Assembly (NCBI GenBank): GCA_965153355.1
Contig: OZ231126.1
Location: forward strand, 17,174,001-17,238,000
Source: Flaccisagitta enflata
Lineage: Eukaryota
Length of the DNA stretch: 64,000 nt
Reading direction: 5' to 3'
Positions 12,488-55,306 of this stretch are shown in pieces. The notes below the pieces were generated by a model that was not told the origin of the DNA, did not search any database, and saw nothing but the letters and a program-made list of their open reading frames with translations. How positions within the stretch are numbered: the first letter of the stretch is position 1; the number at the start of each line of letters is the position of its first letter. Position numbers and translations under genes: made by a program.

Positions 12488-15400
12488 TCTTGCATTGGTG
12501 TTAACAGAAATCCGCCTATAACAGAAAGAAATTGTCTGTTCCCTTGACATTCGTTATTGCGAGGATCAACAGTATTCATCATTGGGCATCCAAGGGAACA
12601 TTGAGGCCTCGTTGCAAACCAGGGGGAGAGAAAAAAATGGTCTGAATCTAACACGAACCATTAGAGAAAATTGGAATGTTTTCCGGTGATGAATGTTCAA
12701 AATGGGGAAAATGTTCAAATCAAAAAATCATAAAAAGGAAAATGATTTCATAGAGAGGAGAAAAGTTCCTTCTTTTGGACTGTCTTCATTCTGATCTGAT
12801 TCATCTGATTTGAACCATTCGTTTGGTGTCATTGTGATTGTGACAGACTGCCATTTTCAGACGGGGGGGGGGGAGAGTAGAAGGTGTGTCCGAACTTAAT
12901 TTGCAAACTGTCTATCGTGAATTTCTTGCTCAGCCGCCGTTATCTCGTTATTTTTTTCTCGTGCTTAGACAAGATCTGGCGTGTTAGATGACAAAGTCAC
13001 TATACGAATACGGATGAACGTTGGACGGAACACATACATGTAATCGATGATCTTTTCATAACAGCGATACTCGTTGCTTCCTCGAGAATGCCTCACTGAA
13101 CCCAACCAGAAAATATGGCATTATTTCAATTTCCCTCCGTGAAGCAATGAACACCGCCTTACCCAACAATAGTCAACTGTCAACCCTCAAAACCGAATCC
13201 GCTCCAAGAGCTTGTAAAAAGATCAACCACTACTTTTTCTGAGCTTCCCAGTTACTCAAGACAGATAAGTGTTAAGTGTTTAGTTCCGTTTAACAGCAGA
13301 ACAGAATAAGCATACGGTAAATGTTTCCAATCGCGGTCCTCGCAAACAAACAACAAGTGCTACCTCTCCTACGATGATTGTTGACGGTTTAAACAATTAA
13401 CGGGTGTTCGAATAAAAATTGGAGACAGTTTTTGATAGGTTAGCTTTTTTGTTTGGGCACCTAGGAAAAAACAATGAAATAACAAAAGATAGCGGGTAAC
13501 ATAACTAACAGTTTGGTGAAAGAATTTTAATTTTATCATGCACCATTGCAAAGAAAATCAAAATAAACAAATTCCTGGTGAAAAATTTCTACAGAGCCCG
13601 GGACAAAAGGGTAGTTTCCCTAGTCAGTGCTGCACCAGTGTTTTTGAAGAAAACTAAATTGTCTTTTGTTTTCTTGCTGCAGCTTTTTTACAAAGGAGAG
13701 GAGGCCTAGAGCTTGGTAGTCAAAAGATTCATCTTACATGTCCTAAACATGTAACAAGTAATACCCTCTGAATCAAAGACACTTCCTCAATGCAATCTAT
13801 CTTAGCCAAGCAAAGCCAAGCCAGGCCAAACCAAGTCAAGCAAAGCCAATCCTTCCTGATCCAAGCCAAGCCTCAGTCCATGTCAAGCTAAGCAAGGTCA
13901 TTTCACATTCAAAAACAGTTAAGGCAAGCCCCTCTAAGTCATCCATGTTGCCTTCAGACAAACAAAGCAAACCTTGGTTGTGATGAACTTACTGCATCCC
14001 GGATTCCCAATTTTCTTACTTTTGCTAATGTATTTTTGTGGTGGGCTAAAATTGTATAACGTAAAGATATAAGCGAAACATGTCAATGATGAAATTTGAT
14101 CAAAAAGGTTTGATTGGAAACAAAGCCATCAATTTTTGAATCAAGGATCTCTACTTCACAAACCAGATTTTACTCTTAGCCTTGAAATTTTTCAGATTTT
14201 TTTTTTTGCTTTAGTATTTCATGTATTGTAATCTCATGTTTTCTGATTGACAAGATAGGAAAGATTGACTCTAATTCAGCTATAACAGCTTTAAAATGGG
14301 CCAACAGCAATATGCAAATAAGGAGGTGCGCAGATCATCCTCAACAAAAATGTTCTTAAACACTAACTTTTAAGAATAAATAAACAAATCAAATATTCAT
14401 GGCTGATTGACCAAGAGTTAATCTAACCCAGTTGCTTAAACCACGAAAGATTTTATAATTGAACCATATTTGAATCTATGCTGTTAACATGCATATTGTG
14501 CCTACCATCTTAGAGGAATGATTTGAATTATTGCCATTTGATTAATACAAACTTGGAACAAAAAACATGAAACGGCAACAAAGAGGGCTTGCAAATAAAA
14601 AAAACAGCAATATGCAAATAAGAAAAAGCAAAAAAGAAAAGCACTGTACTATAGCTGCTTGAAATAGACAAAATGGGATGATAATTGTGGTGGATGAGAG
14701 GAAAGATTAAATCCTTTTGTTCATGCAAATGCAACAGGCCATATTTAACTATTATATTTATTGACTTCTTCCTCTGTTAGTAAGTCAATCTGATATTTGA
14801 TTTTGTGCTTTTGATATACATATTTTAGTCACAACCATTTGGCTAAATGTATACCCTTTTACTTAAACATTTTAATGTAGCCCACATGTAAAGATATCAT
14901 ATTTGTCATTTCAAAAATTGACAATTTTGGCTGCCAGCAGCATTGAGGGCAAAAACTTAGTGCCATGGATATGGAAACAGTAAGCTACCAATCTCAATGA
15001 AAGTAACTGCTTTATGCAAATGAAGTCAGAACATCACTACTCTTTTTTCTTTTCTCTTCAACAATGTACCATCTCATTTGCATATTGTAGCATCAAATTT
15101 CATGGTTGAAATCTTGGTAAAATAAAGATTTTTTCTCCTTGTAAATACAGTGTGGATATCATTTTGATTCAGGGTTAAGGTGACTGATATTTACAAAGAG
15201 ATATTACAAGTGTGGTTAAACAAATTTAAAGATGAATGTTAATCTTTAAAGACAAACTCAATTGTGTTGGCCATTCATTTTGAAAAAATGCAAATACATT
15301 GGACAGTTTATTTTTCAAAAAATGCATATCAGACTTAAAACAATTAGAGTATGAATGGAAAGATCTTTAAGTGGGACACCATGGATTTGAACTCACTTAT

Positions 15401-15579
15401 ATTCATTTTGTATATCCCTTTTCAATATTTGACATGTTCACTGCAGCCAGATTTCATTGCAATGTACTGAATGAACAAAAGCAAGAAGCAGCTACACAGC
15501 TCCTTAACTTTAGCAAAACTGAACTCACTATAACACCTTGTGAATTAAGGGATTTAACACCTTGTGAATTAAGGGATTT

Positions 15580-17230
15580 AACCAATCCTAAAGAAGTCAA
15601 ATAGATGCTCTCATGATAGTCGTAAAATTATATTCTTGCTCCAAGGACATTGCATAATTGAAAAGACTGAGTTAGTTATTACACAAATGGGCCAATGATC
15701 ACCATGGGTTGATTCAACGAACCTATCAAAATGACAACAGGAGGCCATTTGACAGGCTAACATAGAGCTGCAATATGCTAATGAATTAATTGGTCCCTCT
15801 ACTCTGAACACATGACTGAGGAACAACTGGTTGATTCCATTCCATAAATCTTAAATAATCATGCTTACTCGGTCAAAGGATTATCCAAATAGTTGACCAT
15901 ACCAAGGGTAAAGAGGTATCCCAAGAGAGAAATTCATTGTTTGACTATGCAAAATTCATCTTTTCTTGTTGTGTAAGATCTTACAGATGATTCATTTTTT
16001 AAAACATAATCAAACAGTAAGGAGTGAAATGGATGCTACTACAGTTGCGGTCAACTGATCTAGTTGCTTCAAGAACATTGCGCACTAATTGTTTTTACAT
16101 CAATTGTTGGACTAGTGAACCAGTTCCCCAAACGAGATGAAATAACCTGCCTCTAAAACTGACATTGGGATGGCTACTTATCAGGTACTAAGAGAGCTGC
16201 AATATGCTAATGAGATTAACGGTCTCTCCTCATTCAGTGTTATCAATGCAGGCACCATGGTTGACAGGAGAGACTAGAGGAGAACTAGTTGGTTCATGAG
16301 TTCTGATGCACAACAGGCTGGATCTGGATGGCTCATATGCTACATGCCATAAGAGCATTTCTTGACTACTGGGGCATCAAGATGGAATGAGAAAACACTA
16401 TCTTTAGACTATCTTTTCTCTCTTAGCAGCCTATAAGAATCAAAAGGGTAGGCCCTTTGAGGACAGTCAAATGTTGGGAAAGCATTCCGAATAAGATTCC
16501 ATCTTTTCAACAAGCTGTTACTGAACAGAATCAAAGGTTTTTCTCATCGGGAATAGAAATTTAAGGATTTGATTTTACAAAAAGCTGAATATTGCAAGTT
16601 CTATTCATAGTTGCGGACACGCAACTCTATAAGAGGCTTTGTCCGTCCGTCCGTCCGTCCGTCCGTCCGTCCGTCCGTCCGTCCGTCTGTCCGTCCGTCC
16701 GTAAGCACGAGTCAAAAAGTGGAAAAACGTGCATATCCGCCCCTGCCCACCCGTCCGCAACTGATGGCCGTGTATCCGGCCTTGTTGTGTTCGTGCTAAC
16801 TCTGAATATGTCTGTCTACCAGAATAAACCAAATCAAATTATGCATTTCCATTAGGTGACCCAGTATCATTTCGTCCATGCAGAATTTTGATAATCTTGG
16901 AAATGATCATTCAAGATCTCTAATGATGATCAAAATAGCGATCAAACTGTAAATAGTCAAGTGGATGCCATCATAATTGTTGTTGATCAAAATAGCGATC
17001 AAACTGTAAATAGTCAAGTGGATGCCACCATAATTGTTGTTAAATGATCTCATTGCTTCAAGGACATTGCACATATCAAAAAAGTGTCTTGACCATTGAA
17101 ATAATGGACCAATGATCTACTTGGCATGAATGAAAGTGCCCATAAAATGGACATTCAGGAGACTATCTATTAGGTTACTATAGCGTAACAATATGCTAAT
17201 TAGATTATTGGTCCCTGTTCTCAGTCTTTT
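15580..17230 (+). repeat. Left array: 3 copies of the ~260-bp octamer module (~15580-15810, ~16005-16250, ~16995-17230)
   Basis: Shared ordered motifs AAG[G/A]ACATTGC ... CCA[A/G]T ... GACA..GGA ... CAATATGCTAAT; homologous to the reverse complement of the right-array units. Confidence 0.8.
16608..16786 (+). mobile_element. DINE-like element, family A (young, CpG-intact)
   Basis: AGTTGCGGAC...GTCCGCAACT, (GTCC)n, terminal hairpin. Confidence 0.85.
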
Positions 17231-18439
17231 AAAGGACTCTAGTTGCTTGGAAAAAGCTTTATTTAAAAGACTGTATTTACATTTCATCCATTTTTGAGGA
17301 TGTGAGCAATGCTAATATGACACTGGTCAATTGATATAAAAGCTCCAAGGTCATGAAAGATATCTATTGTAATGGCCCATAGGTCAGGCAAACCCACTTT
17401 AGAAATCGTTTCAAGCAGCAGTTCTGGTTCAAAGAGCAAATCATCAATGAATCAAAAACCTACTTGTGTTTTAAGTAAAAGTTCCCTAGTTTTTCTTCAG
17501 GTTACCCAACACTCAATTAAAACGATTTACAGACATAGATCCTTTAGGTGATATGATTTTACTATTTACACATCAGAGTATGAAATGATTGAAACTACAT
17601 AATGAGAAGTATCCTCTGACATGAAAGAAAAAAGAAAGGTGAACAACAAAAATCAACTTGTCAGTTCATGGGTTTCAAAAAAAAATATTTTTGTAGTCAA
17701 CAGCAAAGAACATCTTACTTCAAGAAAGGATAGCTAATCTACTACAATATGCAAATGAGATTGACACTGATTCAATCTCCTTAACCTTTAGAAAGTCAAA
17801 ATTTTTCCTGACAAAACAATATTGTGTATTCATAAATCCAACATCTTCAGTTGCAAACTTGCTGTGTAGGTCCATCAGTCCAATTGTCTATTTGTATCTT
17901 TTTTAAAATGTGTTTTTTGCTATACTGCCCCTGACTACCCATCCGCAATTGGTGACTGTGTCTGTGGCCATGTTGGTTTATGATTAAAGGCAAAAAAGTG
18001 ATTGGTTGCATCTTCAAAGTTTGATGAAATCATCTGCATATTGCAGAAACTGACTTGGTCTGATCAACGTATTGATCCATATTTTGCAGTTGACTTTTTT
18101 TCTTTTCAATGATTAATCATGACTCTTGATAATATATTAATCGCTTAAACCTTTTTTATCTGCCTCTTAAATTGGAAGCAAGAAACTATCTGTCAATCAA
18201 TCTCACTCATTGAAAAAAGTTTTAAACTTTCATCTTCAATAACATAAAACCAAGGAAAAATTTTGCAGGGGAGGGTAGAAGAGGTACAGATTGTTATAAA
18301 TACCATTTCTTTCTTTTCAAAGAAAATATAGTCTTAGGAAAGTAAGTAGAGCTTAAACGCATAGCAAGGGTTTAGAATTGCAAGTAATGTTTAAGAATGG
18401 AAATTTAATTAGGTCTAGGGGTTGAGAATGATGGTAAAG

Positions 18440-18870
18440 GTGTACAGTTTAGGGCTTGTGGGAAAGGGGTTGGGATAAGGAGTAGATTTAGGTGCAGGGT
18501 TGAGTTCTTGGGTAGGGGTTGAGTAAGGGGTGGAGTTAAGGGAAGGGGTGGGACTAGGGATAGAAGTTGAGTTTGGGGTGGGGGGAGTTAGGGATAGGGG
18601 TGGAGTTAGGGTAGGGGTGGAGTTAGGGGTGGAGTAAGGGGTAGAGGTGGAGTTAGGGGTAGGATTGGGCGAGCTAGGGGTAAGGGGTGGAGGTTGAGTG
18701 TGGGGTCAAAGGTCCATGGTGAGGGTCGAGTCAAGGGTAGGAGTGGGGTAAGAGGTAGGAGTGGAGTTGGCAGCAGGGGGAAGTTAGAGGTAGGGGCTAG
18801 TCTAGGGTTAGGGGTGAGTCAAAAGGTAGGGGTGAGTCCAGGGGTGTCTGAAGGTAGGGGATAGGGCACA
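18440..18870 (+). repeat. G-rich degenerate telomere-like tract (GGAGTTAGGG-type)
   Basis: Dense GGG/GGGG runs; followed by a decayed family-A 3' end at ~18870-18900. Confidence 0.75.
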
Positions 18871-18905
18871 TGACTGGGGTAGCGGTGTGTCCAGCCTCTT
18901 CATCC

Positions 18906-18957
<52 letters not shown>

Positions 18958-19033
18958 CTCTCTCTGTATCTCTCTCTGACAAAGAATCATCGCCATTGGT
19001 TCGTCTTTTCAGTGTTGCGAATCCTGAGAAGGA

Positions 19034-20702
19034 TTTTTAGTCGCGTGCACGCGACTCCACAACCCGCTCTGTCGGTCGGTCCGTCGGTCCGTCGGTCCGT
19101 CCGTCCGTCCGTAACACTTAGCTTTTTTGTGTCGTTTTTGGTCATTTTGGGTCGTCTGGAGTTATTTTGAGCCATTTTTTTGTTGTGTTTGGTCATTTTT
19201 GGTCATTTTTGGTCATCTTTGGTTGTTTTTAGTCATTTTTGGTCATTTTTGGTCATTTTGGTCATTTTGGTTTTTTTTTGGTCATTTAAGGTCATTTTTG
19301 GTCATTTTTGGTCATTTTCGATCATTTTCGATCATTTTTGGTCATTTTTGGTCATATTTGATCATTTTTGGTCATTCTTGATCATTTTTGATCATTTTTG
19401 GTCATTTTTGGTCATTTTGGTCATTTTGGCCATTTTGGTTTTTATGGTCAGTTTAGGGCATTTTTGGTCATTTTTGGTCATTATTAGTCATTTTTGGTCA
19501 TTTTTGGCCATTTTGGCCATTTTGGTCATTTTGGTCATTTTGGTCATTTTTGGTCATTTTTGATCATTTTTGGTCATTTTTGGTCATTTTTGGTCATTTT
19601 TGGTCATTTTTGGTCATTTTTGGTCATTTTTGGTCATTTTGGTCATTTTGGGTCATTTTTGATCATTTTTGGTCATTTTGGTCATTTTTGATCATTTTTG
19701 GTCATTCTTGATCATTTTTGGTCATTTTTGGTCATTTTTGGTCATTTTGGTCATTTTTGGTCATTTTTGGTCATTTTTGGTCATTTTTGGTCATTTTGGT
19801 CATTTTTGGTCATTTTTGGTCATTTTTGGTCATTTTGGTCATTTTTGGTCATCTTTGGTCATTTTTGGTCATCTTTGGTCATTTTTGATCATTTTTGGTC
19901 ATTTTTGAACATTTTCGGTCATTTTTGATCATTTTTGATCATTTTTGGCCATTTAGGTCATTTTTGGTCATCTTTGGTCATTTTTGATCATTTTTGATCA
20001 TTTTTGATCACTTTTGGTTATTTTGGGTCATTTTTGATCAGTTTTGGTCATTTTGGTCATATTTGGTCATTTAAGGTCATTTTTGAACATTTTTGATCAT
20101 TTTTGATCATTTTTGATCATTTTTGGTCATTTTTGGTCATTTTTGGTCATTTTTTGTTTAAGTCTGCTGGTTTAAGTCTGCTGGTTTAAGTCGGCTGATT
20201 TAAGTTGGCTGGTTTATGTTGGCTGGTTTAAGTCAGCTGGTTTAAGTTGGCTGGATTAGGTTGGCTAGTTTAAGTCAGCAGATTTAGGTCTGCTGGTTAA
20301 GGTCTGCTGGTTAAAGTCTGCTGGTTTAAGTCTGATGGTTTAAATCTGCTGGTTTAAGTCTGCTGGTTTAAGTCTGCTGGTTTAAGTCTGCTGGTTTAAG
20401 TCTGCTGGTTTAAGTCGGCTGGTTTAAGTCGGCTGCTTTAAGTCGGCTGGTTTAATTCTGCTGGTTTCGGTCTGGTTTTGGTCTGGTTTAAGTCTGGTTT
20501 GAGTCTGGTTTGAGTCTGGTTTGAGTCTGGTTTGAGTCTGGTTTGAGTCTGGTTTGAGTCTGGTTTGAGTCTGGTTTGGGACTGGTTTGGTTCTGGTTTG
20601 GGTCTGGTTTAAGTCCAATTTTCGAAAAAAAAAGATCAATAAGGAGTCAGGTCAGTTTAGTTATTTTTGTCCTGCACGGGACTTATAGGTGTTGGCCTTG
20701 TT
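19034..20702 (+). mobile_element. DINE/Helentron-like element (family A variant) carrying (GGTCATTTTT)n and (GGTTTAAGTCTGCT)n satellites
   Basis: Starts TTTTTAGTCGCGTGCACGCGACT, has a GTCC/GTCG microsatellite, ends GGCCTTGTTT, and is inserted into a T-run. Confidence 0.75.
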
Positions 20703-20735
20703 TTGTGAACATGGACTTGATGAAGGAGAGGATGG

Positions 20736-20765
20736 TTAGGGTTAGGGTTAGGGTTAGGGTTAGGG
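20736..20765 (+). repeat. Interstitial telomeric repeat (TTAGGG)5
   Basis: Direct reading. Confidence 0.95.
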
Positions 20766-20819
20766 TCCATAGCCCAAAATTTTCTAAACACCATTTCTAA
20801 CATATTCTGTCTATTTCTG

Positions 20820-22845
20820 TTCATGTCTCTTGCCTCCTCATGCCTGCTCATGTCTCCTTTTCTCTCTTCATGTCTCCTTTTCTCTCTTCATGTCTCCTCA
20901 TGTCTGGTCAAGTCTCCTCATGTCTCTTTGTGTCTCCTCATGCCTGCTAATATCTCCTTATTCCTCTTCATGTCTCCTGTGTCTTCATGTCTCTTTAAGT
21001 CCATTCATGCCCGTTCATCTTTGCTCATGTATCCTCATGTCTCATGACTTTTCATGTCTTTTCATTTTTCTCCATATTTCCTCATCTTTTTCATTTCATG
21101 TTATGTCTACTCAAGTCTCTTCATGTCTCCTCATGACTTTTCATGTCTCTTCATTTCTTCGCATGTCTCTCCAAGTGTCCGCATATTTCTTCATATCTCA
21201 TCATGTCTCCTCATGTCTTTCCAAGGGTCCTCATGTCCCTTCATATCTCATCCATTCTTTACATGTATCTTCATGTCTCCTCATGTCTCCTCATGTCTCC
21301 TCATGTCCCTTCATGTCCCCTCCATTCTTTTCATGTGTCTTCATGTCCCATCATAACTCTTGTAGTTTTCTCCTGTTTCTTCATGTTTCTTCATGTCTTT
21401 TTATGTCTTTTCTATTCTTTTCATGTCTCCTCATGTCTCCTTATGTTTCCTGATGTCTCTTCATCTCTCCTCATTTCTTTTCATGTCTTTTCATGTGTCC
21501 TAATGTCTTCTCCGGTCAATTCATGTCTCCTTATTTCATTTTATGTCTTTTCATGTCTCTTTATGTCTCTCCACAAAGATACATTAAGAAACATGAAAAG
21601 AGATGGAGAGACATCAAAAGACAAGAGAAGACATGAAAAGACATGAAAAGACATGAAGAGACATGAGACGACATGAAAAGACATGAAGAGGTATGAAGAA
21701 GCATGAAGAGATATAAACAGACATGAGGAGATATGAAAAGACATGGAAAGACCTTAGCAGACATGAGCGACATGAGGATACATGAAGAGACATGAGTAGA
21801 CATTAAAAGAAATTAGGAGACGTGGATAGACATGAGAAGACATGAAAGACATGAAAGACAAGAAAAGACATGATAAGACATGAAGAGACATAAAGACACA
21901 TGAAAAGACTTTAAGAGACATGAAAAATATGAATAGACATGAGGAAACATAAAGAGAAATGAGGGGACATGAGGAGACATGAGGAGACATGAAAACACAT
22001 GAAAAGACATAAAAAGAAATGAGGAGACATGAAGAGACATCAGGAAACATGAGGAGACATGAGGAGACATGAAATGATTTGAAAAGACATGAGGAGACAT
22101 GAAGAGACATGAAGAGACAAAAAAAATGAAGAAACATGAGGAGACTACAAGAGACATGAGGAGACATGAAGACACATGAAAAGACATGAAGAGACATGCG
22201 AAGACATATGGAGACATGAAAGGACATGAGTCGACATGAAAAGATATGAAAAGATTTTGTACTACATGGAAAGACAGGAGAGACATGAAAAGTCATGAGG
22301 AAACATTAGTAGACATGAAGAGACATGAGAAGACACAAAGAGACAAAAAAGACATGAAAAGACATAAGAAAATAAGGAGATATGAAAAACCGTGAGAAGA
22401 CATAAAGAGACTTAAAAAAAAAAGAAAGAGACATGAAAAGACATGAAGAAACATGAAGAGAAATGAGGAGACAAGAAGAGACATGAGAAGACAAGAAGAG
22501 ACATGAAAAGACATAGAGAGATGTGAAGAGACATACGTAGACATAAAAAACATAAAGAGACATGAGGAAACATGAGGAGACATAAGGAGATATAAAGGGA
22601 CATGAAAAGAAAAAAAACAACATAAAGAGACATGAAACCACATGAAGAGACATGAGGAGACAAGAGGAGACAAGAGGAGACAGAGAAGACATGGAGGTAT
22701 ATGTGGAGACATAAATCATGAAAACAGATGTGGAGACATGAGGAGACATAAGGAGACATGAAATGACATGAGGAGACATAAAGAGTAATGAATAGACATA
22801 AAGGGATAAGAAGAGACATGAGGAGACACATGGAAAGACATGAAG
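20820..22845. repeat. Degenerate 10-bp satellite (TCATGTCTCC)n switching to its reverse complement near 21575
   Basis: Direct reading of the repeat units. Confidence 0.95.
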
Positions 22846-23233
22846 ATCCTCTACTTCACTTACAATCTTTCCCTGTAGTCTTCTGAGGAAAAGGTTCATG
22901 CAAACCCACACAGCTAAATGCACCTAGGCTACACACAGACTTTGATTTTCCAAGATCAAAAAAATTCCATTTCTTTTTCTCTCCCTATCTCTTTTTTCAA
23001 GACAACAGCCTGGCCTCACATGTTTGACTTGATCGAGAGAGAGAGAGAGGGAGACATGAAGAGGAATAAGGAGATATTAGCAGGTGTGAGGAGACACAAA
23101 GAGACATGAAAAGACATGACCAGACATGAGGAGACACAAGAGACACAAGGAGACATGAAGAAACACAAGGTGACATAAGGAGACATGAGGAAGCATGAGG
23201 AGGCAAGAGACATGAAAAGAAATGGACTTTGGA

Positions 23234-23256
23234 CCCTAACCCTAACCCTAACCCTA
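23234..23256 (-). repeat. Interstitial telomeric repeat (CCCTAA)3+
   Basis: Direct reading; inverted partner of 20736-20765. Confidence 0.95.
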
Positions 23257-23349
23257 CCACCCTCTCCTTCATCATGTTCATGTTCACAAAAAATCCTTCT
23301 CAGGATTAGCAAAACTGAAAAGACGAACCGATGGCGATGATTCTTTGTC

Positions 23350-24265
<916 letters not shown>

Positions 24266-24301
24266 AGAAAGTCACACTCTGTCACACTCTGTCTCTTATC
24301 C

Positions 24302-25470
24302 TTTTTGGGCAGCGGCCCCGAAGGGGTCGATGACCTATGCTTTCACACATATGGGGGATTTTCTCCTTCTCCTCTTTCTTCCTCTACGTCCTCCCCCCCT
24401 CAAATCCTAGTCTCGAAGCCCAAATTCCAGTCTCGAGGCCCAAATCCCAGTCTTGAGGCCCACATCCCAGCCTCAAGGCCCAAATCATAGCCTCCAGGCC
24501 TAAATCCTAGCCTGGAGGCCCAGATTTCAGTCTTGAGGCCCAAATCTCAGCCTCAATGTCAAAGTCTCAGCCGAGAGGCCAAGATCCACGCCTTGAGGCC
24601 CAAATCTCAGCCTCCAGGCTAGGATTTGGGCCTTAAGGCTAGGATTTGGGCCTTGAGGCTGGGATGTGGGCCTCAAGACTGGGATTTGGGCCTTGAGACT
24701 GGAATTTGAGCCTCGAGACTGGGATTTGAGGGGGAGGGACGGAAGAGGAGAAGGAGAAAATCCCCCATATGTGTGAAAGCATAGGTCATCGACCCCTTTG
24801 GGGCGCTGCCCTGCTCCCCCTCAACTTCAACCACAACCTACAGTAGATGTCGTCTAGACTTGGAAATACGGGGGAATTCTTTACAGGAAGACAAATAAAC
24901 TTAAGAGACTGATATTTGAAATATAAACTAATAAAAGGATGCTTTATTGCCCATGGGTGTTGGTTGCTATGGAAACACATTTCCATGTATTCATGCCAAA
25001 GTATCAATATTTTGAGAAATTTTTTGAGGGAACATTGTTTAAAATGAAATTTGCTACAACTTTCCCACAGTATGTTCTGTAAGAATATTGCTCGTTTGGC
25101 GGTTGCTAGGGAGCATCACAGGGCTGTCACACATAGTTACGCTCCCTAGCAACGGCTAAACTAGCAATATTCTTACAGAACTTATTGTGGGAAAGTTATA
25201 TCAAATTTTATTTTAAACAATGTTCCTTCAAAAAATTTCTCAAAATATTGATACTTAAGCGTGAATACATAGAAATGTGTTTCCATGGCAACCAACACCC
25301 ATGGGCAATAAAGTATCCTTTAATTAATCTATATTCCAAATAACATTCTCTTAAGTTTATTCATCTTCCTGTAATGAATTCCCCCATATTTCCAAGTCTA
25401 GACGACATCTACTGTACATAGGCAGGGCACAGGTACCGCTGACCATCTAATGCTTTTGCGGCTATTTCCT
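24302..25470 (+). mobile_element. DINE-like element, family B, with a nested MITE
   Basis: Family B termini, inverted 21-bp repeats; tail GCAGGGCACAGGTACCGCTGACC resumes after the MITE. Confidence 0.75.
24841..25414. mobile_element. Near-perfect palindromic Tc1/mariner-type MITE
   Basis: ta|CAGTAGATGTCGTCTAGACTTGGAAATA ... TATTTCCAAGTCTAGACGACATCTACTG|ta; arms of about 280 bp. Confidence 0.9.
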
Positions 25471-28235
25471 TAATCATCCCTATTTCTAAATTCACCCCTC
25501 CCATGGGACTAAACCCTAACCTTGAAATCAACTCTCAAAACCTAAGCTTAATTGCATCTTTTATGCCTTTTGAATGTCTGAACTGAAACTCCTCAAAAGA
25601 TAACTAATCTGAGAATTTGTTTTCAATGTTAATCCTTTGACATTTTAATAAAAGATAAGCCCCTTATTCCTGTCCCCCCAAAAAACCTATACGATGATAA
25701 CAAATGTTGAAGTGGAAGGTCATAAACATTCCTTTTGAATGAGTGAGATTTGTTGACAGACAGTGTCCTCCCACCAGAACAAGACATGAAACAGAAAGAT
25801 ACTTGAGAACTGGACATCTTCAAGAGTCAAGATTTATTATAGAATACAATAAATTCATACATGCAACGTGGCTGAGGATTTTGATCAGGAGAAGACAATA
25901 TCTGCAATATGCAAATGATTTCATGGATTTTTAAAGGAGTAGCCAATCTTCCTCTTGACAAAAACTTGCTTTCTAAAACCAAAAATGTTTGATTGATTGA
26001 TTGATAAACATCATCAAAAAGATTTTGCCTACAGAGTTCTGCATCTATTGACTAAAATTTTTGCCAAATCCAAATCATGGCCATTTTTGTAAGAGGAGAA
26101 CAAGATTTTTCCATTCGTTAACATTTTGACTTTCTTCAGGCCAGATTCAATATCATTTGCATATTGTAGAGTGCAATTAAACCTCTCTTGTTTATGATTT
26201 TAATCAATTTTTTTTTCTTATTACTTCAAAAATGCCTTTGAATGAAATCCATGAACTATAGATTTGATCCATATTTTGTTCATGTCAAAAGATATCTTTT
26301 GTGATGTAGGTTTAAAAGTTTCTTTCACTGTGATATAAAAAGTATTTTTGAAAAGGAAATATGCCAGAGCAAAATTACACTTGGCTGCATTGGTTTTTCT
26401 TAGTCTTAATTATTGGGGCTCACTGCAACCTAATCTTATATCCTTAACAATATCTTTGCCCTTCCCTTTAGACATCGCCACGAACCTGTCAGTACCCTTT
26501 TGACCCATTCATGGGCAACCTTGCCATTTTTGAATGAGAACTGACAGACAGAGAACCATCCATATGTCTTCCACCCATTTTCCCGACATTTTATGCAGCT
26601 AAAACAGTAAAAAAGGCTTAGAAGGAGCACTGTCAATCTCATTTGCATATTGCAGCACTACAGTGACCTAGAAAAAAACTCCCTGAATACCCTTTTTTTT
26701 AAGGCATCGATTGGTCTCTAGTAGATCATCGGTCCATAAGTCTAAAAATCAAGTCCATCTCTTGATATCTGCAACGCTTAAGAGTCATTCTGTAATTGGA
26801 CCCCTATCATATTGGAATTCATTTTGCTCTTAACAGTCTAAAAAGACCAAAAAAAAAAAACTTCTTTTCAACAAAACTGTGTTACTTCTCAAAGGGTGAT
26901 AGGCTGACTTAGCTTACCTGATAACTAATCTTTGCGTTTCTGAAAAAGTGTGAGTTTAATTCAGTTCCTCTCTTCAGGTCCCCTGACAAACCAGTCTATG
27001 CCCTCAACATCTGTTGACTCACGAGCCATCTGATCAGTTGTTAGTGAGAATTGAGAGATAGAGAACCTTCCACTTGTTCCCCCCCCCCCTTTCTTTTCAA
27101 CCAATGTTGAAGCCAAATCAGTATGGAACACTGAGAAGGTACACTGTCAATCTTATTTGCATATTGCAGCACTACAGTAACGTAGACCAAACTTCCTGAA
27201 TGTCGTTTTTTGAAGGTGTATGAATCAGCATTTTGTAGATCATTAGTCCATCAGTCTAACATTCATGTCCATTTCTTAATATCTGCAAAGCCTCAGAGCC
27301 ATTCCATACTTTGACCACTATCTTTTATGACTTGGTTTTGCTCCTTTCAGTCAGACAAAGACCTAGAAAATCCCAAATACATAGGGCATGTACAGAAAGA
27401 TGATACATTAACTGTGATCATCCCAATTATTCAGGAAGTTCCCTTCACACCTATCGACTGGCTTTTAACAAAACTAACAGATGAAGACCTATAAATCTGT
27501 CTTCTTTTTTTTTATTGGTTCATGCAGCTAAAACAGTATAAATATTGGGTAGGGACACTGTCAATCTCATTTGCATATTGCAGTTCTATAGTAATCTAAT
27601 AAAAACATCCTGAATATCATTTCTTTCAGGGGTATAAAATGATCTCTAGTAGATCATTGGTCCAAAAATCCAATACATAGGTACATAGCAATGCCTAAGA
27701 GTCCTCACATAATTGGACCATTTTTATGTTGAAATTCATTTTGCTCCAAATAATCTTACAGAGACCAAAGAAATAACATCTATCGGTGCTTACTTTGCAT
27801 AGTAATAACATGTGTCTCACTTTTTTCTTCCCTTAATGAATTATTGACTTGCGAGCAATTTGGCAAAATGTGAAAGAGAACTGATTATCTTCTACCCCTT
27901 TTTTCAGCATACTATGCAGGCAAACAGTATAAAAGACTCAGAAGGGACACTGTCAATCTTATTTGCATATTGCAGTCCTATAGTGACCATAAAAAAAGTT
28001 CCTAAATGACATATTTTCAGGTGCATAGATCGGCCTTTAGTCGATAATTAGTTCATCAGTCTAACAGTCAAGTCCATTTCTTGATATCTGCAATGCCTAA
28101 GAGCCATTGCATAATTTGAGCACTACCATTTTGGAATTCATTTTGCTCCTTACTGTCAGATAAACACTTAAAAGATTTTTCACCTCGGCTAACATGAAAA
28201 ATAATTGCATTTTTGAAAAACTGTTAACTCAGTTT

Positions 28236-28733
28236 ATGTTTGCAGACACGCATCTCTATAAAATGCTTTGACTGTCTGTTTTTCCATTTGTTTGTCTATA
28301 GAGGTGATTGAGTAGAAAAGTGGAAAGTTGAGCGTTTTGGATACATTTTGTGTGTATGGAGTGGGGCGTTGGGGTTAGATGCCCCTGCCCACCCATTCGC
28401 AATGAACTTGTGAACCTGCGTCATGTGTTCTCTTCAGATTTCCTAACGAACCAGTCTATGCCTTTTTCACCCATTGACTGATGAGCCATCTGATCAGTTG
28501 TTAGGGATGATTAAGAGACAGAGAACCTTCCTCTTGTTTTCCACCCCTTTTTTTGTCACGTGCCAGTGACTCTACAACCACCTTTGTCCATCTGTCCGTC
28601 AGTCGGTTGGTCCCAATTTTACTTTTTTTTATGATTTCATTTCTTTGACCTCACTGCCCCTGCCTGAATGGTCTAGTGACCTCAAATGTGGCCCCTGCCC
28701 ACCCGCACAGTAGCTGTGTATCCGGCCTTGTTT
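28236..28733 (+). mobile_element. Two decayed family A elements (~28236-28430 and ~28550-28733) inside the right array
   Basis: CCCCTGCCCACCC cores and family A ends with CpG-to-TpG/CpA changes. Confidence 0.7.
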
Positions 28734-29594
28734 CAACCAATTTTGCAGCCAAATCAGTATGAAACACTGAAAGGGGACCCTGTCAATCTTGTTTGCATAT
28801 TGTAGCTCTATAGTGACCTAGAACAAACTTTCTGAATATTATTTTTTTTCAGGTGCATGAATCGGCGTTTTGTAGATCATTAGTCCATCAGTCTTGCAGT
28901 CAAGTCCATTTCTTGATATTTGCAATGCCTCAGAGCCATTCCATAACTTGACCACTACCTTTCATTAATTGATTTTGCTCCTTACAGTCTTACAAACACC
29001 TAAAAAATCTAATGAACCTGAGGGCTGAGGCATATACAAAAATTATTTATTGCAGCCCAACCTTTGAATTGGTAAATGCCCTTCACTCCCATTGACTCAC
29101 AAGTCAAGACTCAAGAGCAATCTGGTTGGTTAACAATACAGCTAACACATAGATAATCATACGTTTGTCTTCAACTCTTTATATTAACCTTTCATGCAGC
29201 TGAAACAGTATGAAAGATTCAGTAGGGACACTGTCAATTTCATTTGCATATTGCAGCTCTATAGCGACCTAATAAAAACTTCCTGAATGTCTTTTTTTCA
29301 GGGGCATTGATTGCTCTTTAGTAGATCATTGGTCTAATAGTCCAATACATAGGTTCATCACTTGACTTCAGCAATGTCTTAGAGTTATTTCATATTTGGA
29401 TCTCTTTCATAATGAAATTCATTTTGCTCCTAACAGTTTTACAGGGACCCAAAAAATAACATTGAACCACGCATGATTAAGACATAAAGGTTATCTCAGT
29501 TCTTCCCTCATTCAACCATTGACTTGCAAGTGATCGGGCAAAATATAAATGAGAATCAAGAGAGAGAGAGATTCATTCAATTGTCTTCTACCCC

Positions 29595-30104
29595 TTTTTG
29601 GGCAGCGGCCCGAAAGGGGATGAAGTCCTGTAGAACACAGAGGAACTTTTGTTTGTTGGTTTGTTTGTCCATTTGTTTGTCTCCCCCAGGCCCTCTCAGG
29701 CCTGAAATCAGCCCTTTCAGGCCTGACATCTGCCTGCTCAGGCCTGAAATCTGCCTTCTCAAGCCTAAAATCTGCCCTCTCAGGCCTGAAATCTGCCCTC
29801 TAGGACCTTGAATCTGTCCTATCAGGCCTGAAATATGCTCTCTCAGGCCTCAAACCTGCCCTCTCAGAGTCAGGACTGAGAGTGTAGATTTCAGGCCTGA
29901 GAGAGCCTGAGAGAGCCTGAGAGAGCCTGACAGGGCCTGGGGGAATAGATTTACAGACGGAAGAAAGAACAAACAAAAGTCCTCCTGTGTTCTAAAGGAC
30001 TTTGTCCCCTTTGGGGCCGCTGCCCTACTTCCTTTTATTCTGATTCACAACTATGCAAAGCAGGGCAACGGGTATCGCTGACCACATATTCTTGGGCGAC
30101 TAGT
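29595..30104 (+). mobile_element. DINE-like element, family B, inserted in the right array
   Basis: Family B termini, inverted 21-bp repeats, T-run insertion site. Confidence 0.8.
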
Positions 30105-30894
30105 TTCAAGGTATTATGAAGCCAAAATAGTACAAACGGCTCAGAGGGGACACTGTCAATCTAATTTGCATTTTGCAGCTCTATAGTGACCATAAAAAAA
30201 CTTCCTGAATGTCATTTTTTTCAGGTGCATAGGTCCTCCTTTAGTAGATCAATTGTACATCAGTCTAACAGTCGAGTCCATCTCTTGATATCTGCAATGC
30301 CTAAGAGCCATTCCATACTTTGAACACTATTATATTGGAACTTATTCTGCTCCTTGCAGTCTTTAGAATACCTAAAAAATCATCTAAAATTGCAAAAGGT
30401 CGAGGCATTTCTGTTTGTTTAACTTAGTAATTCTCTAAGAGGTCCTAACATCTATGCTTTATACACTCAGTAACTCATGGGCCGTCTGATTATTTGTTAT
30501 TGTAAATCAAGAGATAGAGAAGTGTCCACTTGTTTTCCACCCGCTTTTTCAACTAGCTTGGCAGCTAAAACAAAATGAAATCTTGAGAAAGCACACTGTC
30601 AATCTTATTTGCATATTGCAGCTTTATGGTATCCCAGTAAAAACTTCCTCAACATTTCTTTTTAGATGCGTGAATCGATATTTTGTAGATCATTAGTCCA
30701 TCAGGCTAACAGTCAGGTCCATATCTTGAAATCTCCAATGCCTCAGAGCTATTCCATAATTTGACCACTATCATATTTGATTTCATTTTGCTCCTCACAG
30801 TCTAACAAATGAAGGTGACTGGTACATAAAGCATTTTGCTTATTTCAAATGAGAATTCATAGAGGAAAGACTGCCCTGTTGACCATGTATTAAG

Positions 30895-31045
30895 TTTTTA
30901 GTTGCCGACACGCGACTCTACACCTCGCCACGTTGGTAGGTTGGTAGGTTGGTAAGCTACTAACTTTTTTGAACTGCGAGCAGTTTTTGCATTACGGCCC
31001 CTGCCCAACCATCTGCAACGGTCTTGCCATAAATCCGGCCTTGTT
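30895..31045 (+). mobile_element. DINE-like element, family A
   Basis: Family A termini. Confidence 0.7.
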
Positions 31046-33516
31046 TATATTAGCCATTCTATGCAATATGAGATAGAGTGACCTATGACCACAGCTGCAT
31101 TATCAGGTGCAACAAAGCACCTATAAAACTGGCTGTGTCCAACGGTTGGTCAGTCGTTTGGTTGGTTGATTGGTAGCGCATTCATTTGATGATCCACATG
31201 TCGCACCCTACTTGGCCTTGTGTATGTTCTTTTAAATCATCAACAAGTAGAGTGACAGAAATACACAGCAACATCATTATGCTAATGAGATTCTCATATC
31301 ATTTTGATTTTTGTTGTTGGAGAAATGGAACTAAATCTAGTTTGCATATTGCTGCATGCGTTTTAACCTGCTATGGTTGTCTTTTTTACTTAGTACGGGG
31401 TTATTTGATCATGTCATATGGTCATTGAATGTAAGCAGGAAAAAATTTTTCCTCACTGCAGTAATTCTCATTTTCATCTGTGACCTCAGGCAAAATCCTT
31501 ATTCATCACAATGGTAAACATGAAGCTTGTTTAATAGGTCAAATCATATTAATTCAAGGAAACGTAACTTTGGCAGAACCTAACACTTTGCTGTTACAGT
31601 CTGTCTCGCTCTAATTATCTCTCTATCTAACCAGTCATTGATCAGTCCCTCATAATTATTTCTGAGATTTTTATTTTGTTATTTTTTTTTCTTAGTGCTA
31701 TAGGTCGCTGTAAGGTGCGCAAGTGTCAAATACTATTGTACTACAGTTTTGTAGTACTGCCCCTGTCTTACTGATTTGGGCTTGATCATTTTCACAGGAG
31801 TGTTCACTTTTTTTTCCATGGTATAATAATCACCACATTTGAATTGTAGGCCTTGATTACTCATACTTTAGAAGCCGTATTTTGATTTAGTTTTTGATGG
31901 GGCTTTTATCCTTTGACAATATAGTTAACTAGCAGGTTGAAACAAGCGTAGATCAAGCTGTTGAAAATCATAAAATTGGAATTGAACTCTTTAACCAAAA
32001 AAGAAATAGATGCAGTTTGGGTCAAGTGTTCTTTCCACACAGCACAGAGCCCAAACTCACATTTTGAATACCTTGTTTTTGTTTTACATCACTGAAGATT
32101 CAAAAAGAAACTTTCAGCAATATGTAAATAAGGATTGATACAAGCTGCTGTGAATGTCTGATTCAAACTTTGAAAGTAAGTAAAAAGAAATCGTTTGCAT
32201 ACTGCAGTCATGTCAATTCTTAATGGCTTGGCATCTAGCATCATAAATGAGAGATATTTTTGTATGCTTAAACAATTTTTGCAACACAAACTTTCAGTAG
32301 TTTGATAATTGAGATATTTGGTCTTGTGCTACTTCTTTATTGCCTTCAATATTACCTTTGTCCTACAAGACACAAATGAAATCAATTTTAGAGAACTAGT
32401 CAATTTCTGGGCGATAAGAATGTTTTTACAGCTCATGTAGTTCATCACAGAATTTTTTTTGTGAATAATTTTCTCACTTTGAATTTAAAAGTGTCAGATT
32501 CATTGATGAAATATTGAAAAACAATTATGTCACTCAATCCAAGTAAATCACATGCAAGTTGAAAAAAGGCTTCACTCATACTTTAAAGTCTTTTGTTCTT
32601 TTGTTTTCATTGCCTAGTTTAGTGGGAAAACTCAAGATGGCATCAAACTACAGCAAATTTTTCTTTGCGGTTCTACTGCTGCTGTCCCTGCAGTTTTGGA
32701 CCTCTCACAAGACTGGTTCTACTGCTGCGGTTCTACTGCTGCTGTCCCTGGAGTCTTTGACCTCTCACAAGACCTTTCAAGTGCAGATCAGAGGTTTCAA
32801 GTGCCTTTTGCTCTTTTTTTCAGGAAAGATGAGAAGAGACTGAGAAAAAAGACAAGTGGTGGCCCTCTTTAGTCTGATTTAGACATGAAAAAAGGGAACA
32901 ACGCCATTGTTTATTTTGGTTGTTTTGAAAGAAGCTAAGACATAAAACAACTCGTTTTTTGTCTTAGATTAAAGAGGAGACTAAGACCTTCCTTTTGGTC
33001 TACAAAACATGCATGTTGTGCTTCCCTAAATGTGTTTTATTCATGACTTTTTGAATCTTTCATTTTTAACTGTTTATCTGTTTGTTTACACTAGTAAACA
33101 GAGACCATGAGCCATGACTTGTTTAACTTAAGCTCTATGAAGCATGATCTACGTCCAGAAAAAAATCGCACGTCTCTAGCTGCTCTGGTTTAGATTTCAA
33201 TTTTTATTCAAACACCCGTTATACGCTCATTGTCCTGTAATCATTGTTTGTTTTGGTAAGACACATCAGGCCAAATAAAAAATGGAAGAAGTAAGCTTCA
33301 ATATTCGCACCATGGCAGGAAAAATGCCTAAGCGTTTCTTGTCCGTTGTATTTGCCGAGTAATCTAAAAATGGCAAAAACTAATGGAGATGGAATGGGCG
33401 TTGCTAAGAGGCGCCCACGAGGCGGTCAATTTGTTACGATTAATAGAAAAACGTCAAAGCTTCATTGTTCTTCATTCCCAGTACGACGAGCGCTCACCTT
33501 CCTCTATCCGTTCTGT

Positions 33517-34650: not shown

Positions 34651-34661
34651 TATGCAACATC

Positions 34662-55199: not shown

Positions 55200-55306
<107 letters not shown>

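What the first reader, a model, noticed from the sequence alone, without database searches (positions are those of the whole stretch)
13400..33219. ~20-kb mirror-symmetric locus with TA-flanked inverted termini and long, diverged arms
Seen: the ends are a 23-bp inverted pair with one mismatch, each bordered by TA. The arms (~13400-18480 and ~25470-33219) are collinear in inverted orientation. For example, 18024 ATGAAATCATCTGCATATTGCAGA matches the reverse complement of 25901-25924, and 18189 TCTGTCAATCAATCTCACTCATT matches the reverse complement of 25738-25760. The arms are clearly diverged while the tips are nearly identical, and no protein-coding cargo is visible. Established: TA TSD plus short TIRs characterise Tc1/mariner elements. 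Inference: either a giant non-autonomous foldback transposon carrying regulatory/ncRNA cargo, or an ancient inverted duplication of a non-coding locus whose shared tip is a promoter motif (it contains TAACGG, a Myb-type core, and AATAAA).
Basis: partly seen in the sequence, partly recalled or inferred. Interest (0 to 1): 0.85.

Follow-up and report, generated by a model that had tools for sequence, protein, structure and literature searches.

The report
Decayed palindromic repeat locus, mobility unproven
This is an old, badly eroded mirror-image duplication of non-coding repeat DNA in an unidentified eukaryote; it looks like a foldback transposon, but nothing here shows that it ever moved.

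Summary
The 24-bp inverted tips are real: 13398-13421 and 33198-33221, 23/24 identical, with no third copy in the window. The arms are not continuously homologous. What exists is a collinear chain of inverted islands around a centre near 21573:
- mirrored 10-bp satellite arrays flanked by mirrored (TTAGGG)n
- 18978-19041 / 23286-23349
- 17560-18239 / 25707-26344 (71% identity)
- a ~450-bp repeat, with 3 degenerate minus-strand copies on the left and a plus-strand array of 8 full units on the right

Each unit keeps a conserved box containing ATTTGCAT. 20 of its 21 window hits lie inside the locus, in mirrored orientation.

The outer parts of both arms, between the outermost boxes and the tips, share nothing except the tips. 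I found no coding remnant, no Rfam family and no conserved RNA fold.

The TA flanks are palindromic and lie inside the inverted repeat, so they are not evidence of a target-site duplication. No longer flanking duplication exists.

Best reading: an ancient in-situ palindrome of satellite-bearing DNA, later invaded by satellites and MITEs. The main rival is a giant foldback-type non-autonomous transposon. Deciding between them needs the source genome, which no tool here holds.

The parts
13398..13421 (+). Left tip: a 24-bp inverted repeat whose outermost 2 bases are TA.
   Evidence: It is 23/24 identical to the right tip, does not extend in either direction, and has no other partner in the window.
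13422..14307 (.). Left outermost segment, with no detectable partner in the right arm or elsewhere in the window.
   Evidence: No BLAST or nhmmer hit. The inverted global alignment scores no better than shuffles.
14308..15087 (.). Outlying copies of the conserved box at 14308 (-), 14608 (-) and 15070 (+).
   Evidence: 15070 (+) mirrors 31275 (-). 14308 or 14608 (-) mirrors 31334 (+).
15579..17364 (-). Three degenerate copies of the ~450-bp unit (15579-15806, 16007-16336, 16995-17364). They are in the opposite orientation to the right array and are interrupted by a dispersed (GTCC)n-bearing element at 16592-16790.
   Evidence: They are 59-66% identical to the right units over 226 shared columns.
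17560..18285 (+). Left inner junction. It is the inverted partner of 25659-26344 and includes one degenerate unit and box-like motifs.
   Evidence: E 3e-19 and 1e-7. One search gives one gapped alignment, 17560-18239 vs 26344-25707, with 430/605 = 71% identity.
18907..19041 (+). (CT)35 plus a 64-bp unique anchor. It is the inverted partner of 23286-23428, which carries (AG)n.
   Evidence: 88.8% over 143 bp. (18978-19041 vs 23349-23286, 93.75%).
19124..20615 (+). Satellites found only in the left arm: TTTTTGGTCA x104, a 14-mer x22 and an 11-mer x14.
   Evidence: They have no counterpart in the right arm.
20701..23291 (.). Central palindrome. From the outside in it has a ~36-bp unique end, then (TTAGGG)5 at 20734-20766 mirrored by (CCCTAA)4 at 23233-23256, then 10/20/30-bp satellite arrays that change strand at 21571-21576.
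   Evidence: I16: 196-nt arms with 6 nt between them. (20701-20977 vs 23291-23050, 78%)..
23598..25416 (.). Insertions found only in the right arm: a MITE-like element with a 21-bp minisatellite (23598-24382), a 20-bp-repeat hairpin (24380-24749) and a 578-bp palindrome (24839-25416).
   Evidence: I1: 281-nt arms, 90%; I7: 175-nt arms, 85%. (relatives at 8802-9276, 29593-30100, 42108-42750 and 53105-53250).
25659..26344 (-). Right inner junction, the partner of 17560-18285.
26488..30889 (+). Tandem array of the ~450-bp unit: 8 full units plus partial ones. Repeat insertions interrupt it at about 28253-28641 and 29529-30036. Units 2-4 resemble units 5-7, indicating a 3-unit duplication.
   Evidence: E 1e-93 to 1e-119. 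(R2/R5 84%, R3/R6 83%, R4/R7 85%).
31275..31351 (.). Outlying box copies at 31275 (-) and 31334 (+), mirroring those of the left arm.
31352..33197 (.). Right outermost segment with no detectable partner. It holds a 60-bp tandem duplication at 32666-32773.
33198..33221 (-). Right tip.

Best explanation
The locus is the relic of one ancient inverted duplication (a palindrome) of non-coding DNA that already carried a short tandem array of a ~450-bp repeat.

Shown
- Two arms run outward from a spacer-free centre near 21573.
- They carry the same landmarks in the same order and in opposite orientation: a 10-bp satellite, (TTAGGG)n, a 64-bp anchor next to (CT)n/(AG)n, a ~700-bp unique junction, the 450-bp repeat, outlying copies of its conserved box, and finally the 24-bp tip.
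- Each arm then changed on its own. The right array grew by a 3-unit duplication. The left arm gained 1.5 kb of simple satellites. MITE-like and hairpin elements inserted on the right. Point divergence reached 29-41%.

Inferred
- The duplication arose in place, by fold-back priming at a broken end or by a template switch.
- The locus is now an inert structure that does nothing sequence-specific, apart from being prone to hairpin formation and unequal exchange.
- The conserved box and the tips survive either through a binding constraint or as slow-decaying patches.
For: Inverted, collinear anchors
- Searches give every non-dispersed match between left and right as inverted, and the matches are collinear.

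The 450-bp unit
- A profile of the unit finds it only in the two arms of this locus within the 64 kb.
- 12 plus-strand rows all lie in 26147-30889. 4 minus-strand rows all lie in 15611-17350 (E up to 10). At E up to 1e-3 the counts are 11 and 3.

The conserved box
- AATCTNATTWGCATATTG has 21 hits with up to 3 mismatches, against 0.68 expected. 20 of the 21 lie in 14308-32135.
- 6 of 7 hits left of the centre are on the minus strand. 10 of 13 hits right of it are on the plus strand.
- Fisher one-sided p = 0.012, but array copies are not independent.

Shared unique sequence
- The junction pair 17560-18239 / 25707-26344 (71%) is present in both arms. This requires duplication, not a mere inversion.

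No sign of mobility
- No transposase remnant: 0 of 125 and 0 of 28 frames reach a Pfam cut-off.
- The 10 bases on either side of the tips are not a direct repeat.

Arm-specific change
- Arm-specific satellites and insertions are shown.
Against: - The tips are 23/24 identical, yet the segments just inside them share nothing detectable. The best-preserved unique arm sequence is only 71% identical. Under uniform neutral decay an isolated near-perfect island exactly at the outer edge is unexpected.
- The box is more conserved than the rest of the unit. Between right units it is 87.9% vs 73.6% (28 pairs). Between left and right units it is 78.3% vs 59.0% (24 pairs). This points to a constraint that an inert relic does not explain.
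- The layout matches that described for the foldback transposon Tetris (PMC4079207, sections 10 and 17 read): tip, non-repetitive domain, tandem-repeat domain, inner domain, non-coding middle.
- The window is rich in small foldback-type palindromes, so such elements are active in this genome.
- Copy number in the genome is unknown.
Confidence: 0.45

Rival explanations
1. It is, or was, a giant non-autonomous foldback-type DNA transposon of the FB / Tetris / Galileo kind.
- The 24-bp tips would be the terminal inverted repeats recognised by a transposase encoded elsewhere.
- The mirrored arrays of the 450-bp unit would supply many copies of the conserved box as secondary transposase-binding sites.
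- The middle would be dispensable and free to fill with satellites.
- Selection at the family level for transposition would keep tips and boxes while the rest of the arms drifts.
For: - The tips are sharply bounded on the outside and near-identical.
- The boxes are conserved above background and sit in mirrored orientation.
- The modular layout parallels Tetris: a flanking domain, a domain of ~220-bp tandem repeats, an inner domain and a non-coding middle, with no ORFs (PMC4079207, sections 10 and 17 read).
- In Galileo, transposase THAP-domain sites recur in the tandem repeats of the long inverted repeats (PMC3688188, abstract read).
- The left tip lies 2158 bp from the outer end of the left repeat copies, and the right tip lies 2309 bp from the outer end of the right array.
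Against: - No target-site duplication can be shown. TA is part of the inverted repeat. The 8-10 bp on either side differ: TTTAAACAAT vs TACGCTCATT.
- Arm identity is 59-71% and the outermost stretches share no homology. Described foldback elements have homologous arms from the tip inward.
- The size is 19.8 kb.
- There is a single copy in the window and no transposase fragment.
- The E-value of the tip pair is modest (0.007).
Confidence: 0.3
2. The palindrome is real, but the 24-bp tip pair does not belong to it. The two tips would be unrelated short fragments of some dispersed repeat of this genome that happen to lie on either side.
For: - The repeat-masked window holds 36 clusters of inverted 24-mers with up to 1 mismatch.
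- It also holds 36 short BLAST pairs of similar score, nearly all pieces of multi-copy families.
- The tip pair is the shortest possible such match: a single 24-mer window.
- Nothing adjoining it is homologous.
Against: - The tip has no third copy in the window, unlike most of the other short pairs, which belong to families with several hits.
- The pair is inverted and brackets the symmetric locus. It sits at similar distances from the outer ends of the two repeat arrays, 2158 and 2309 bp, which a random pair would rarely do. This is my own post hoc estimate, not a tool result.
Confidence: 0.15
3. It is a host functional element.
- One version is a homotypic cluster of octamer-type (ATTTGCAT) protein-binding boxes acting as an enhancer, insulator or chromatin platform, duplicated in mirror image.
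- The other version is a long inverted repeat transcribed into hairpin RNA that yields small RNAs.
For: - The box containing ATTTGCAT is kept in 8 of 8 full right units and in the innermost degenerate unit of each arm. The three left copies carry the variant ATTAGCAT.
- It is more conserved than its surroundings.
- Several near-perfect hairpins lie in the middle.
Against: - No known RNA family reaches threshold.
- The units share no conserved fold.
- Arms at 59-71% identity would not form a long duplex.
- No expression or binding data can be consulted.
- That ATTTGCAT is the POU/octamer site is recalled knowledge, not a test.
Confidence: 0.1

Closest known systems
Foldback transposons with modular arms, e.g. 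Tetris of Drosophila virilis (PMC4079207, sections 10 and 17 read). FB of D. melanogaster and the sea-urchin TU elements are recalled, not read.
   Same: - The order of modules from the outside in is the same: a non-repetitive flanking domain, a domain of tandem repeats a few hundred bp long and variable in number between arms, an inner domain, and a non-coding middle of variable content.
- There are no ORFs.
- The tandem repeats are prone to expansion.
   Different: - Tetris arms are true inverted repeats up to 1,735 bp long, homologous from the tip inward, with 8-10 bp target duplications.
- Here the arms are 5-8 kb and only 59-71% alike.
- The outermost stretch of each arm shares nothing but a 24-bp tip.
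- No target duplication is demonstrable.
- Copy number is unknown.
Galileo (P superfamily) long, internally repetitive inverted repeats (PMC3688188 and PMC3573991, abstracts read).
   Same: A short protein-binding sequence recurs in tandem repeats inside both arms. The conserved box here could play that part.
   Different: - Galileo has a transposase gene or recognisable relatives of one, and 170 copies in one genome.
- Here there is no coding trace.
- Binding of the box by any protein is untested.
Tc1/mariner-derived non-autonomous elements and MITEs. The family features are recalled.
   Same: Short terminal inverted repeats with TA on each side.
   Different: - The TA is indistinguishable from the end of the inverted repeat.
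- 19.8 kb is about ten times the usual size.
- There is no DDE/D remnant.
- The tip does not begin with the CAGT-type ends I recall for Tc1/pogo.
Genomic palindromes formed by fold-back inverted duplication (recalled general knowledge).
   Same: - The centre has no spacer: 6 nt lie between the arms at 21571-21576.
- The arms are collinear and inverted.
- There is no target duplication.
- Only a single copy is seen.
   Different: The near-identical isolated tips and the selectively conserved box are not expected of a neutrally decaying palindrome.
Short satellite-like arrays scattered in euchromatin and carried by non-autonomous mobile elements, as reported for oysters (PMC7492417, PMC8268682). 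Also conserved boxes inside satellite monomers (PMC3694981). For all three I saw only the search listing and the start of the abstract.
   Same: A short array of about 10 monomers of a few hundred bp lies outside heterochromatin-like context. It has one conserved box per monomer and repeats inserted into it.
   Different: - Those arrays are described as flanked by Helentron-type ends, not arranged as mirrored arrays with inverted tips.
- No relation of sequence could be tested.

Membership tests
Tc1/mariner non-autonomous element | TA target-site duplication flanking the terminal inverted repeats | tested here: inconclusive
   TA is present on both sides. But TA is self-complementary and forms the outer 2 bp of the 24-bp inverted repeat, so a duplication cannot be told from the repeat itself.
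Tc1/mariner non-autonomous element | Terminal inverted repeats related to those of an autonomous partner, and a DDE/D transposase or its remnant | tested here: not met
   No Pfam family reaches its cut-off in 125 frames of 40 aa or more or in 28 frames of 70 aa or more. Relation of the tips to an autonomous element elsewhere is not testable with these tools.
Tc1/mariner non-autonomous element | Multiple copies in the genome with different flanks | not testable with these tools
   No eukaryotic genome collection is on hand. Within the window there are only the two tips.
Foldback transposon (FB/Tetris/Galileo-like) | Long terminal inverted repeats that are homologous from the tip inward | tested here: not met
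   Homology at the tip stops after 24 bp. 13422-15578 vs 30890-33197 aligns no better than shuffles. Inverted homology resumes only further in.
Foldback transposon (FB/Tetris/Galileo-like) | Tandem repeats inside both arms, in opposite orientation and variable in number | tested here: met
   The ~450-bp unit has 3 degenerate minus-strand copies on the left and 8 full plus-strand units on the right. The 10-bp satellite arrays are mirrored at 21573.
Foldback transposon (FB/Tetris/Galileo-like) | Target-site duplication of 7-10 bp | tested here: not met
   The ten bases outside the tips are TTTAAACAAT on the left and TACGCTCATT on the right. They are not a direct repeat.
Foldback transposon (FB/Tetris/Galileo-like) | Several copies or rearranged copies in the genome | not testable with these tools
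   No collection holding this organism is available.
In-situ genomic palindrome (inverted duplication) | Two arms with the same unique landmarks in the same order and opposite orientation | tested here: met
   Anchors, from the inside out:
- 20701-20977 / 23050-23291
- 18907-19041 / 23286-23428
- 17560-18239 / 25707-26344
- the unit arrays
- boxes at 15070 / 31275 and at 14308-14608 / 31334
- the tips

In-situ genomic palindrome (inverted duplication) | Single locus, no empty site in relatives, and even divergence along the arms | tested here: inconclusive
   Divergence is uneven: 59-71% in units and junction, 94% in the 64-bp anchor, 96% in the tips. Uniqueness and orthologues are not testable.
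Hairpin-RNA / small-RNA locus or known ncRNA | A known RNA family, or a conserved or extensive duplex structure | tested here: not met
   Rfam gives 0 matches at gathering score. The 21 sub-threshold rows score 27-43 bits against cut-offs of 65-137. The unit alignment folds at -2.04 kcal/mol with 5 pairs. Expression is not testable.

The most novel reading that the evidence does not exclude
The locus is one copy of an unusually large (~20 kb) foldback-type transposon family. Only two kinds of short sequence would be kept by selection for mobility: a 22-24-bp terminal repeat and a ~30-bp box that contains the octamer ATTTGCAT. The box is repeated about ten times per arm in mirror orientation and would act as a multimeric transposase-binding platform. 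Everything else, including most of the arms, would be free to diverge and to breed satellites. That would be a foldback element whose arms are symmetric in motif grammar rather than in sequence.
Probability: 0.2. Interest if true: 0.55.

Novelty: new member of a known kind. Interest (0 to 1): 0.3.

Why it matters
As it stands this is an anatomical description of a repeat-rich, non-coding stretch. Long decayed palindromes and foldback-like structures with internal tandem repeats are well known.

It would matter somewhat more if the tips and boxes proved to be the working parts of a mobile element. That would show how far the arms of a foldback transposon can diverge while the element keeps its binding-site layout. 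It would also give a clear case of a transposon seeding satellite arrays. The mirrored, selectively conserved octamer-containing box is the one feature that a neutral relic does not explain.

Tried and rejected
- **Continuous arm homology.** BLAST, nhmmer in 400-bp pieces, global alignment of the outer segments with controls and k-mer chaining found islands only. In one search the inverted chain has 5 links at k = 11, 2 of which are the tip itself, against a maximum of 3 in shuffles.
- **A private partner for each tip.** None was found. The 14-base core of the tip alone is not significant: 33 of 100 shuffles give 2 or more matches.
- **Homology continuing outside the tips**, as with paralogous flanking genes. 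None was found.
- **Transposase or any protein remnant.**
  - Pfam found nothing above cut-off in 28 + 125 frames. The sub-threshold rows were 8 and 2.
  - 28 further frames outside the locus gave one hit above cut-off: DUF3043, 27.8 vs 25 bits. It lies on an (RE)n frame over a CT microsatellite, and I regard it as a low-complexity artefact.
- **Known RNAs.** Rfam at gathering score gave 0. The E-value scan gave only hairpin look-alikes. There were 0 tRNAs.
- **A conserved fold in the units.** None was found.
- **Naming the organism through the only long ORF (55181-63457).**
  - The word-indexed search gave no hit at E up to 1e-3.
  - The exhaustive search of its last 959 residues gave 2 weak hits (1.4e-4 and 8.1e-4).
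  - The Atlas gave its best score of 0.79, below the usable range.
The (TTAGGG)n runs merely argue against an insect; the telomere types are recalled.
- **Sequence strings in the paper library.** Only two unrelated yeast papers matched an 11-mer.
- **Not done.**
  - No genome-wide copy search was possible.
- The genome collection holds bacteria and archaea only, and the annotated collections hold phages, plasmids and E. coli.
  - No complex or structure prediction was relevant.

Full report
**Setting**

The window looks eukaryotic and very repeat-rich.
- Tandem Repeats Finder masks 13,612 of 64,000 bases.
- There are no tRNAs and no Rfam matches at gathering score.
- The only long open frame is a 2,758-codon low-complexity ORF at 55181-63457, outside the finding.
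- Short (TTAGGG)n runs occur inside the locus. From recalled knowledge of telomere types, this argues against an insect.

**The tips**

13398-13421 reads TAACGGGTGTTCGAATAAAAATTG. The reverse complement of 33198-33221 is the same with one C-to-T change.
- With up to 3 mismatches these are the only two matches in the window, and 0 of 100 shuffles had two.
- The next-best ungapped match to either tip is 16/24, no better than 5 shuffles gave (16-18).
- Local alignment of 1 kb around each tip returns exactly the 24 bp and nothing more. The score is 22, against 11-15 in 30 shuffles.
- The pair is not chance in a random-sequence sense: 0 such inverted pairs appeared in each of 40 first-order Markov simulations.
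- It is not rare in this window, however. The masked window holds 36 clusters of inverted 24-mers with up to 1 mismatch. The window-against-window BLAST E-value of the tip pair is 0.007.
- The flanking TA is real but is the outer 2 bp of the inverted repeat. Being self-complementary, it cannot be scored as a target duplication.
- The ten bases beyond the tips (TTTAAACAAT and TACGCTCATT) are not a direct repeat.

**The arms**

Left-versus-right BLAST shows no continuous inverted homology. It does show that every match not belonging to a window-wide dispersed family is inverted. Sensitive searches add detail.

*The ~450-bp unit*
- A profile built from eight right-arm units finds the unit only in this locus.
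  - Plus-strand rows all lie in 26147-30889: 8 full units with E from 1e-93 to 1e-119, plus partial ones.
  - Minus-strand rows all lie in 15611-17350.
- nhmmer with 400-bp pieces of the left arm places the left copies at 15579-15806, 16007-16336 and 16995-17364.

*The junction*
- One search also shows a unique junction, 17559-18285, matching 26345-25659 in inverted orientation.
- One gapped alignment covers 17560-18239 against 26344-25707, with 430 of 605 aligned columns identical (71%).

*The outer segments*
- Nothing in 12800-15578 finds a partner.
- A global alignment of 13422-15578 with the reverse complement of 30890-33197 scores 90. Block shuffles give 89 +/- 8 (n = 40) and the direct orientation gives 102.

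**The middle is symmetric too**

It is partly mirror-symmetric.
- (CT)35 plus a 64-bp anchor at 18907-19041 matches 23428-23286 next to (AG)124. The 64 bp are 93.75% identical.
- 20701-20977 matches 23291-23050 at 78%.
- Both of those carry a short telomere-like run: (GGTTAG)5.5 at 20734-20766 and CCCTAA repeats at 23233-23256.
- Between them, arrays of a 10-bp satellite (also scored with 20- and 30-bp periods) run as TCTCTTCATG up to 21570 and as its complement ACATGAAAAG from 21577. Only 6 nt lie between the arms (pair I16).
- The rest of the middle is arm-specific.
  - On the left: three simple satellites at 19124-20615 and a G-rich minisatellite at 18514-18845.
  - On the right: a MITE-like element with a 21-bp minisatellite (23598-24382, relatives at four other places in the window), a hairpin of 20-bp repeats (24380-24749) and a 578-bp palindrome (24839-25416).

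**The conserved box**

Aligning the units shows a ~30-bp stretch that stands out...CTGTCAATCTNATTTGCATATTGCAG....
- It contains ATTTGCAT. I recall this as the octamer bound by POU-domain factors, but that is a lead, not a test.
- The 18-mer AATCTNATTWGCATATTG has 21 hits with up to 3 mismatches against 0.68 expected. 0 of 100 shuffles reached 21.
- 20 of the 21 lie in 14308-32135. The exception, at 41486, has 3 mismatches.
- Left of the centre the strands read -,-,+,-,-,-,-. Right of it they read -, then + nine times, then -,+,-.
- Read as a mirror image, the two patterns agree except for the outermost weak hit at 32118. In particular the odd '+' at 15070 is answered by the odd '-' at 31275.
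- A weight matrix finds 17 sites at 10 bits or more against 0.2 expected, all in 14308-31334. It was trained on 15 of these sites, so it is circular for them.
- The box is better kept than the rest of the unit:
  - 87.9% vs 73.6% among right units (28 pairs)
  - 78.3% vs 59.0% between left and right (24 pairs)
  - 79.1% vs 60.6% among left copies (3 pairs)
- Arm against strand gives Fisher one-sided p = 0.012, with the caveat that tandem copies are not independent events.

Mirror symmetry therefore reaches out to about 14.3 kb and 31.35 kb as motif order, even where alignable sequence is gone.

**What is not there**
- No Pfam family reaches its cut-off in 28 frames of 70 aa or more or in 125 frames of 40 aa or more covering both arms. 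There is no transposase trace.
- The permissive Rfam scan gives 21 rows of 27-43 bits against family cut-offs of 65-137. The listed positions lie in palindromic or tandem-repeat DNA such as 21501-21674, 24231-24338 and 24496-24692. I read them as generic hairpins.
- Eleven unit bodies share no fold: -2.04 kcal/mol and 5 pairs.
- 'ncRNA cargo' is therefore unsupported.

**Interpretation**

The unique junction is present in both arms and the landmarks are strictly collinear and inverted. This means one inverted duplication of a segment that already held the repeat array. A simple inversion, or independent insertions, would not give this.

Right units 2-4 resemble units 5-7 (83-85%). The right array thus grew later by a three-unit duplication, while the left copies only decayed.

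Two histories fit.
- **(a) An in-situ palindrome.** It would have formed by fold-back priming or a template switch and then decayed. This explains the spacer-free centre, the absence of a target duplication and of any coding trace, and the single copy. It does not explain why an isolated 23/24 tip and the boxes outlast their surroundings.
- **(b) A foldback-type non-autonomous transposon.** The module order matches Tetris: flanking domain, tandem-repeat domain, inner domain, non-coding middle (PMC4079207, sections 10 and 17). In Galileo the repeats inside the arms carry extra transposase-binding sites (PMC3688188, abstract). That would account for conserved tips and boxes. But described foldback elements have arms homologous from the tip inward and 7-10-bp target duplications. 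Both features were tested here and not met, and 19.8 kb is several times larger than those elements.

I put (a) at 0.45 and (b) at 0.30. The remainder is split between the tips being a coincidental pair of repeat fragments (0.15) and a host function for the boxes or hairpins (0.10). The Tc1/mariner label specifically has nothing in its favour beyond an uninformative TA.

**What stayed unchecked**

Copy number of tips, unit and junction in the source genome, empty sites, orthologous loci and expression were not checked.

Papers seen:
- PMC4079207: outline plus sections 10 and 17.
- PMC3688188 and PMC3573991: abstracts.
- PMC3694981, PMC7492417, PMC8268682 and PMC5139131: search listing and start of abstract only.
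- Statements about FB, TU elements, Tc1/pogo ends, telomere types and the octamer site are recalled.

**Verdict**

This is a real but ordinary kind of object: a decayed, mirror-symmetric repeat locus of about 17-20 kb with foldback-like anatomy. The one unexplained feature is the selectively conserved, mirrored box together with the near-identical tips. Interest 0.3.

Noticed in passing
window 55181-63457 (+): One uninterrupted 2,758-codon open frame. It is rich in polyQ, polyN, acidic and Ser/Thr runs and has hydrophobic segments near its end. There is no Pfam domain above cut-off. No relatives appear in a word-indexed search. An exhaustive search of its last 959 residues gave only 2 weak hits.
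   Followed up: partly
window 20734-20766 and 23233-23256: Short interstitial telomere-type runs, (GGTTAG)5.5 and its complement. They sit in mirrored positions on either side of the central 10-bp satellite palindrome.
   Followed up: partly
window 8284-8517, 24839-25416, 33519-34091, 46916-47522, 51551-52087: Five self-complementary, foldback/MITE-like palindromes of 235-613 bp with arms 76-90% complementary. 33519-34091 and 46916-47522 share sequence, so they belong to one family. The first of that pair lies 300 bp outside the right tip.
   Followed up: no
window 8802-9276, 23598-24382, 29593-30100, 42108-42750, 53105-53250: About five copies of a MITE-like element with ~45-bp inverted ends and an internal 21-bp minisatellite (TGGATTTGAGGCCTGAGAGGC or its complement). 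One copy interrupts the right 450-bp array and another sits in the middle of the locus.
   Followed up: partly
window 16592-16790 and at least 14 other places (e.g. 3678-3857, 4367-4527, 8638-8799, 28558-28732, 30895-31045, 34643-34820, 37485-37689, 51027-51219): A dispersed ~180-bp element carrying a (GTCC)n microsatellite. Its copies lie in the same orientation in both arms, so they are later insertions and not part of the mirror structure.
   Followed up: no
window 19124-20154: A 1-kb array of about 104 copies of the 10-mer TTTTTGGTCA, followed by 14-bp and 11-bp satellites. It is present in the left arm only.
   Followed up: no
window 32618-32800: A 60-bp tandem duplication (32666-32713 / 32726-32773, 94%). 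It lies inside a short open frame that starts with ATG and reads like a hydrophobic signal-peptide-like stretch. No family hit.
   Followed up: no
window 54875-55318 (-): The only Pfam hit above a curated cut-off in the window: DUF3043, 27.8 vs 25 bits. It falls on an (RE)n frame over a CT/AG microsatellite and is probably a low-complexity artefact.
   Followed up: no
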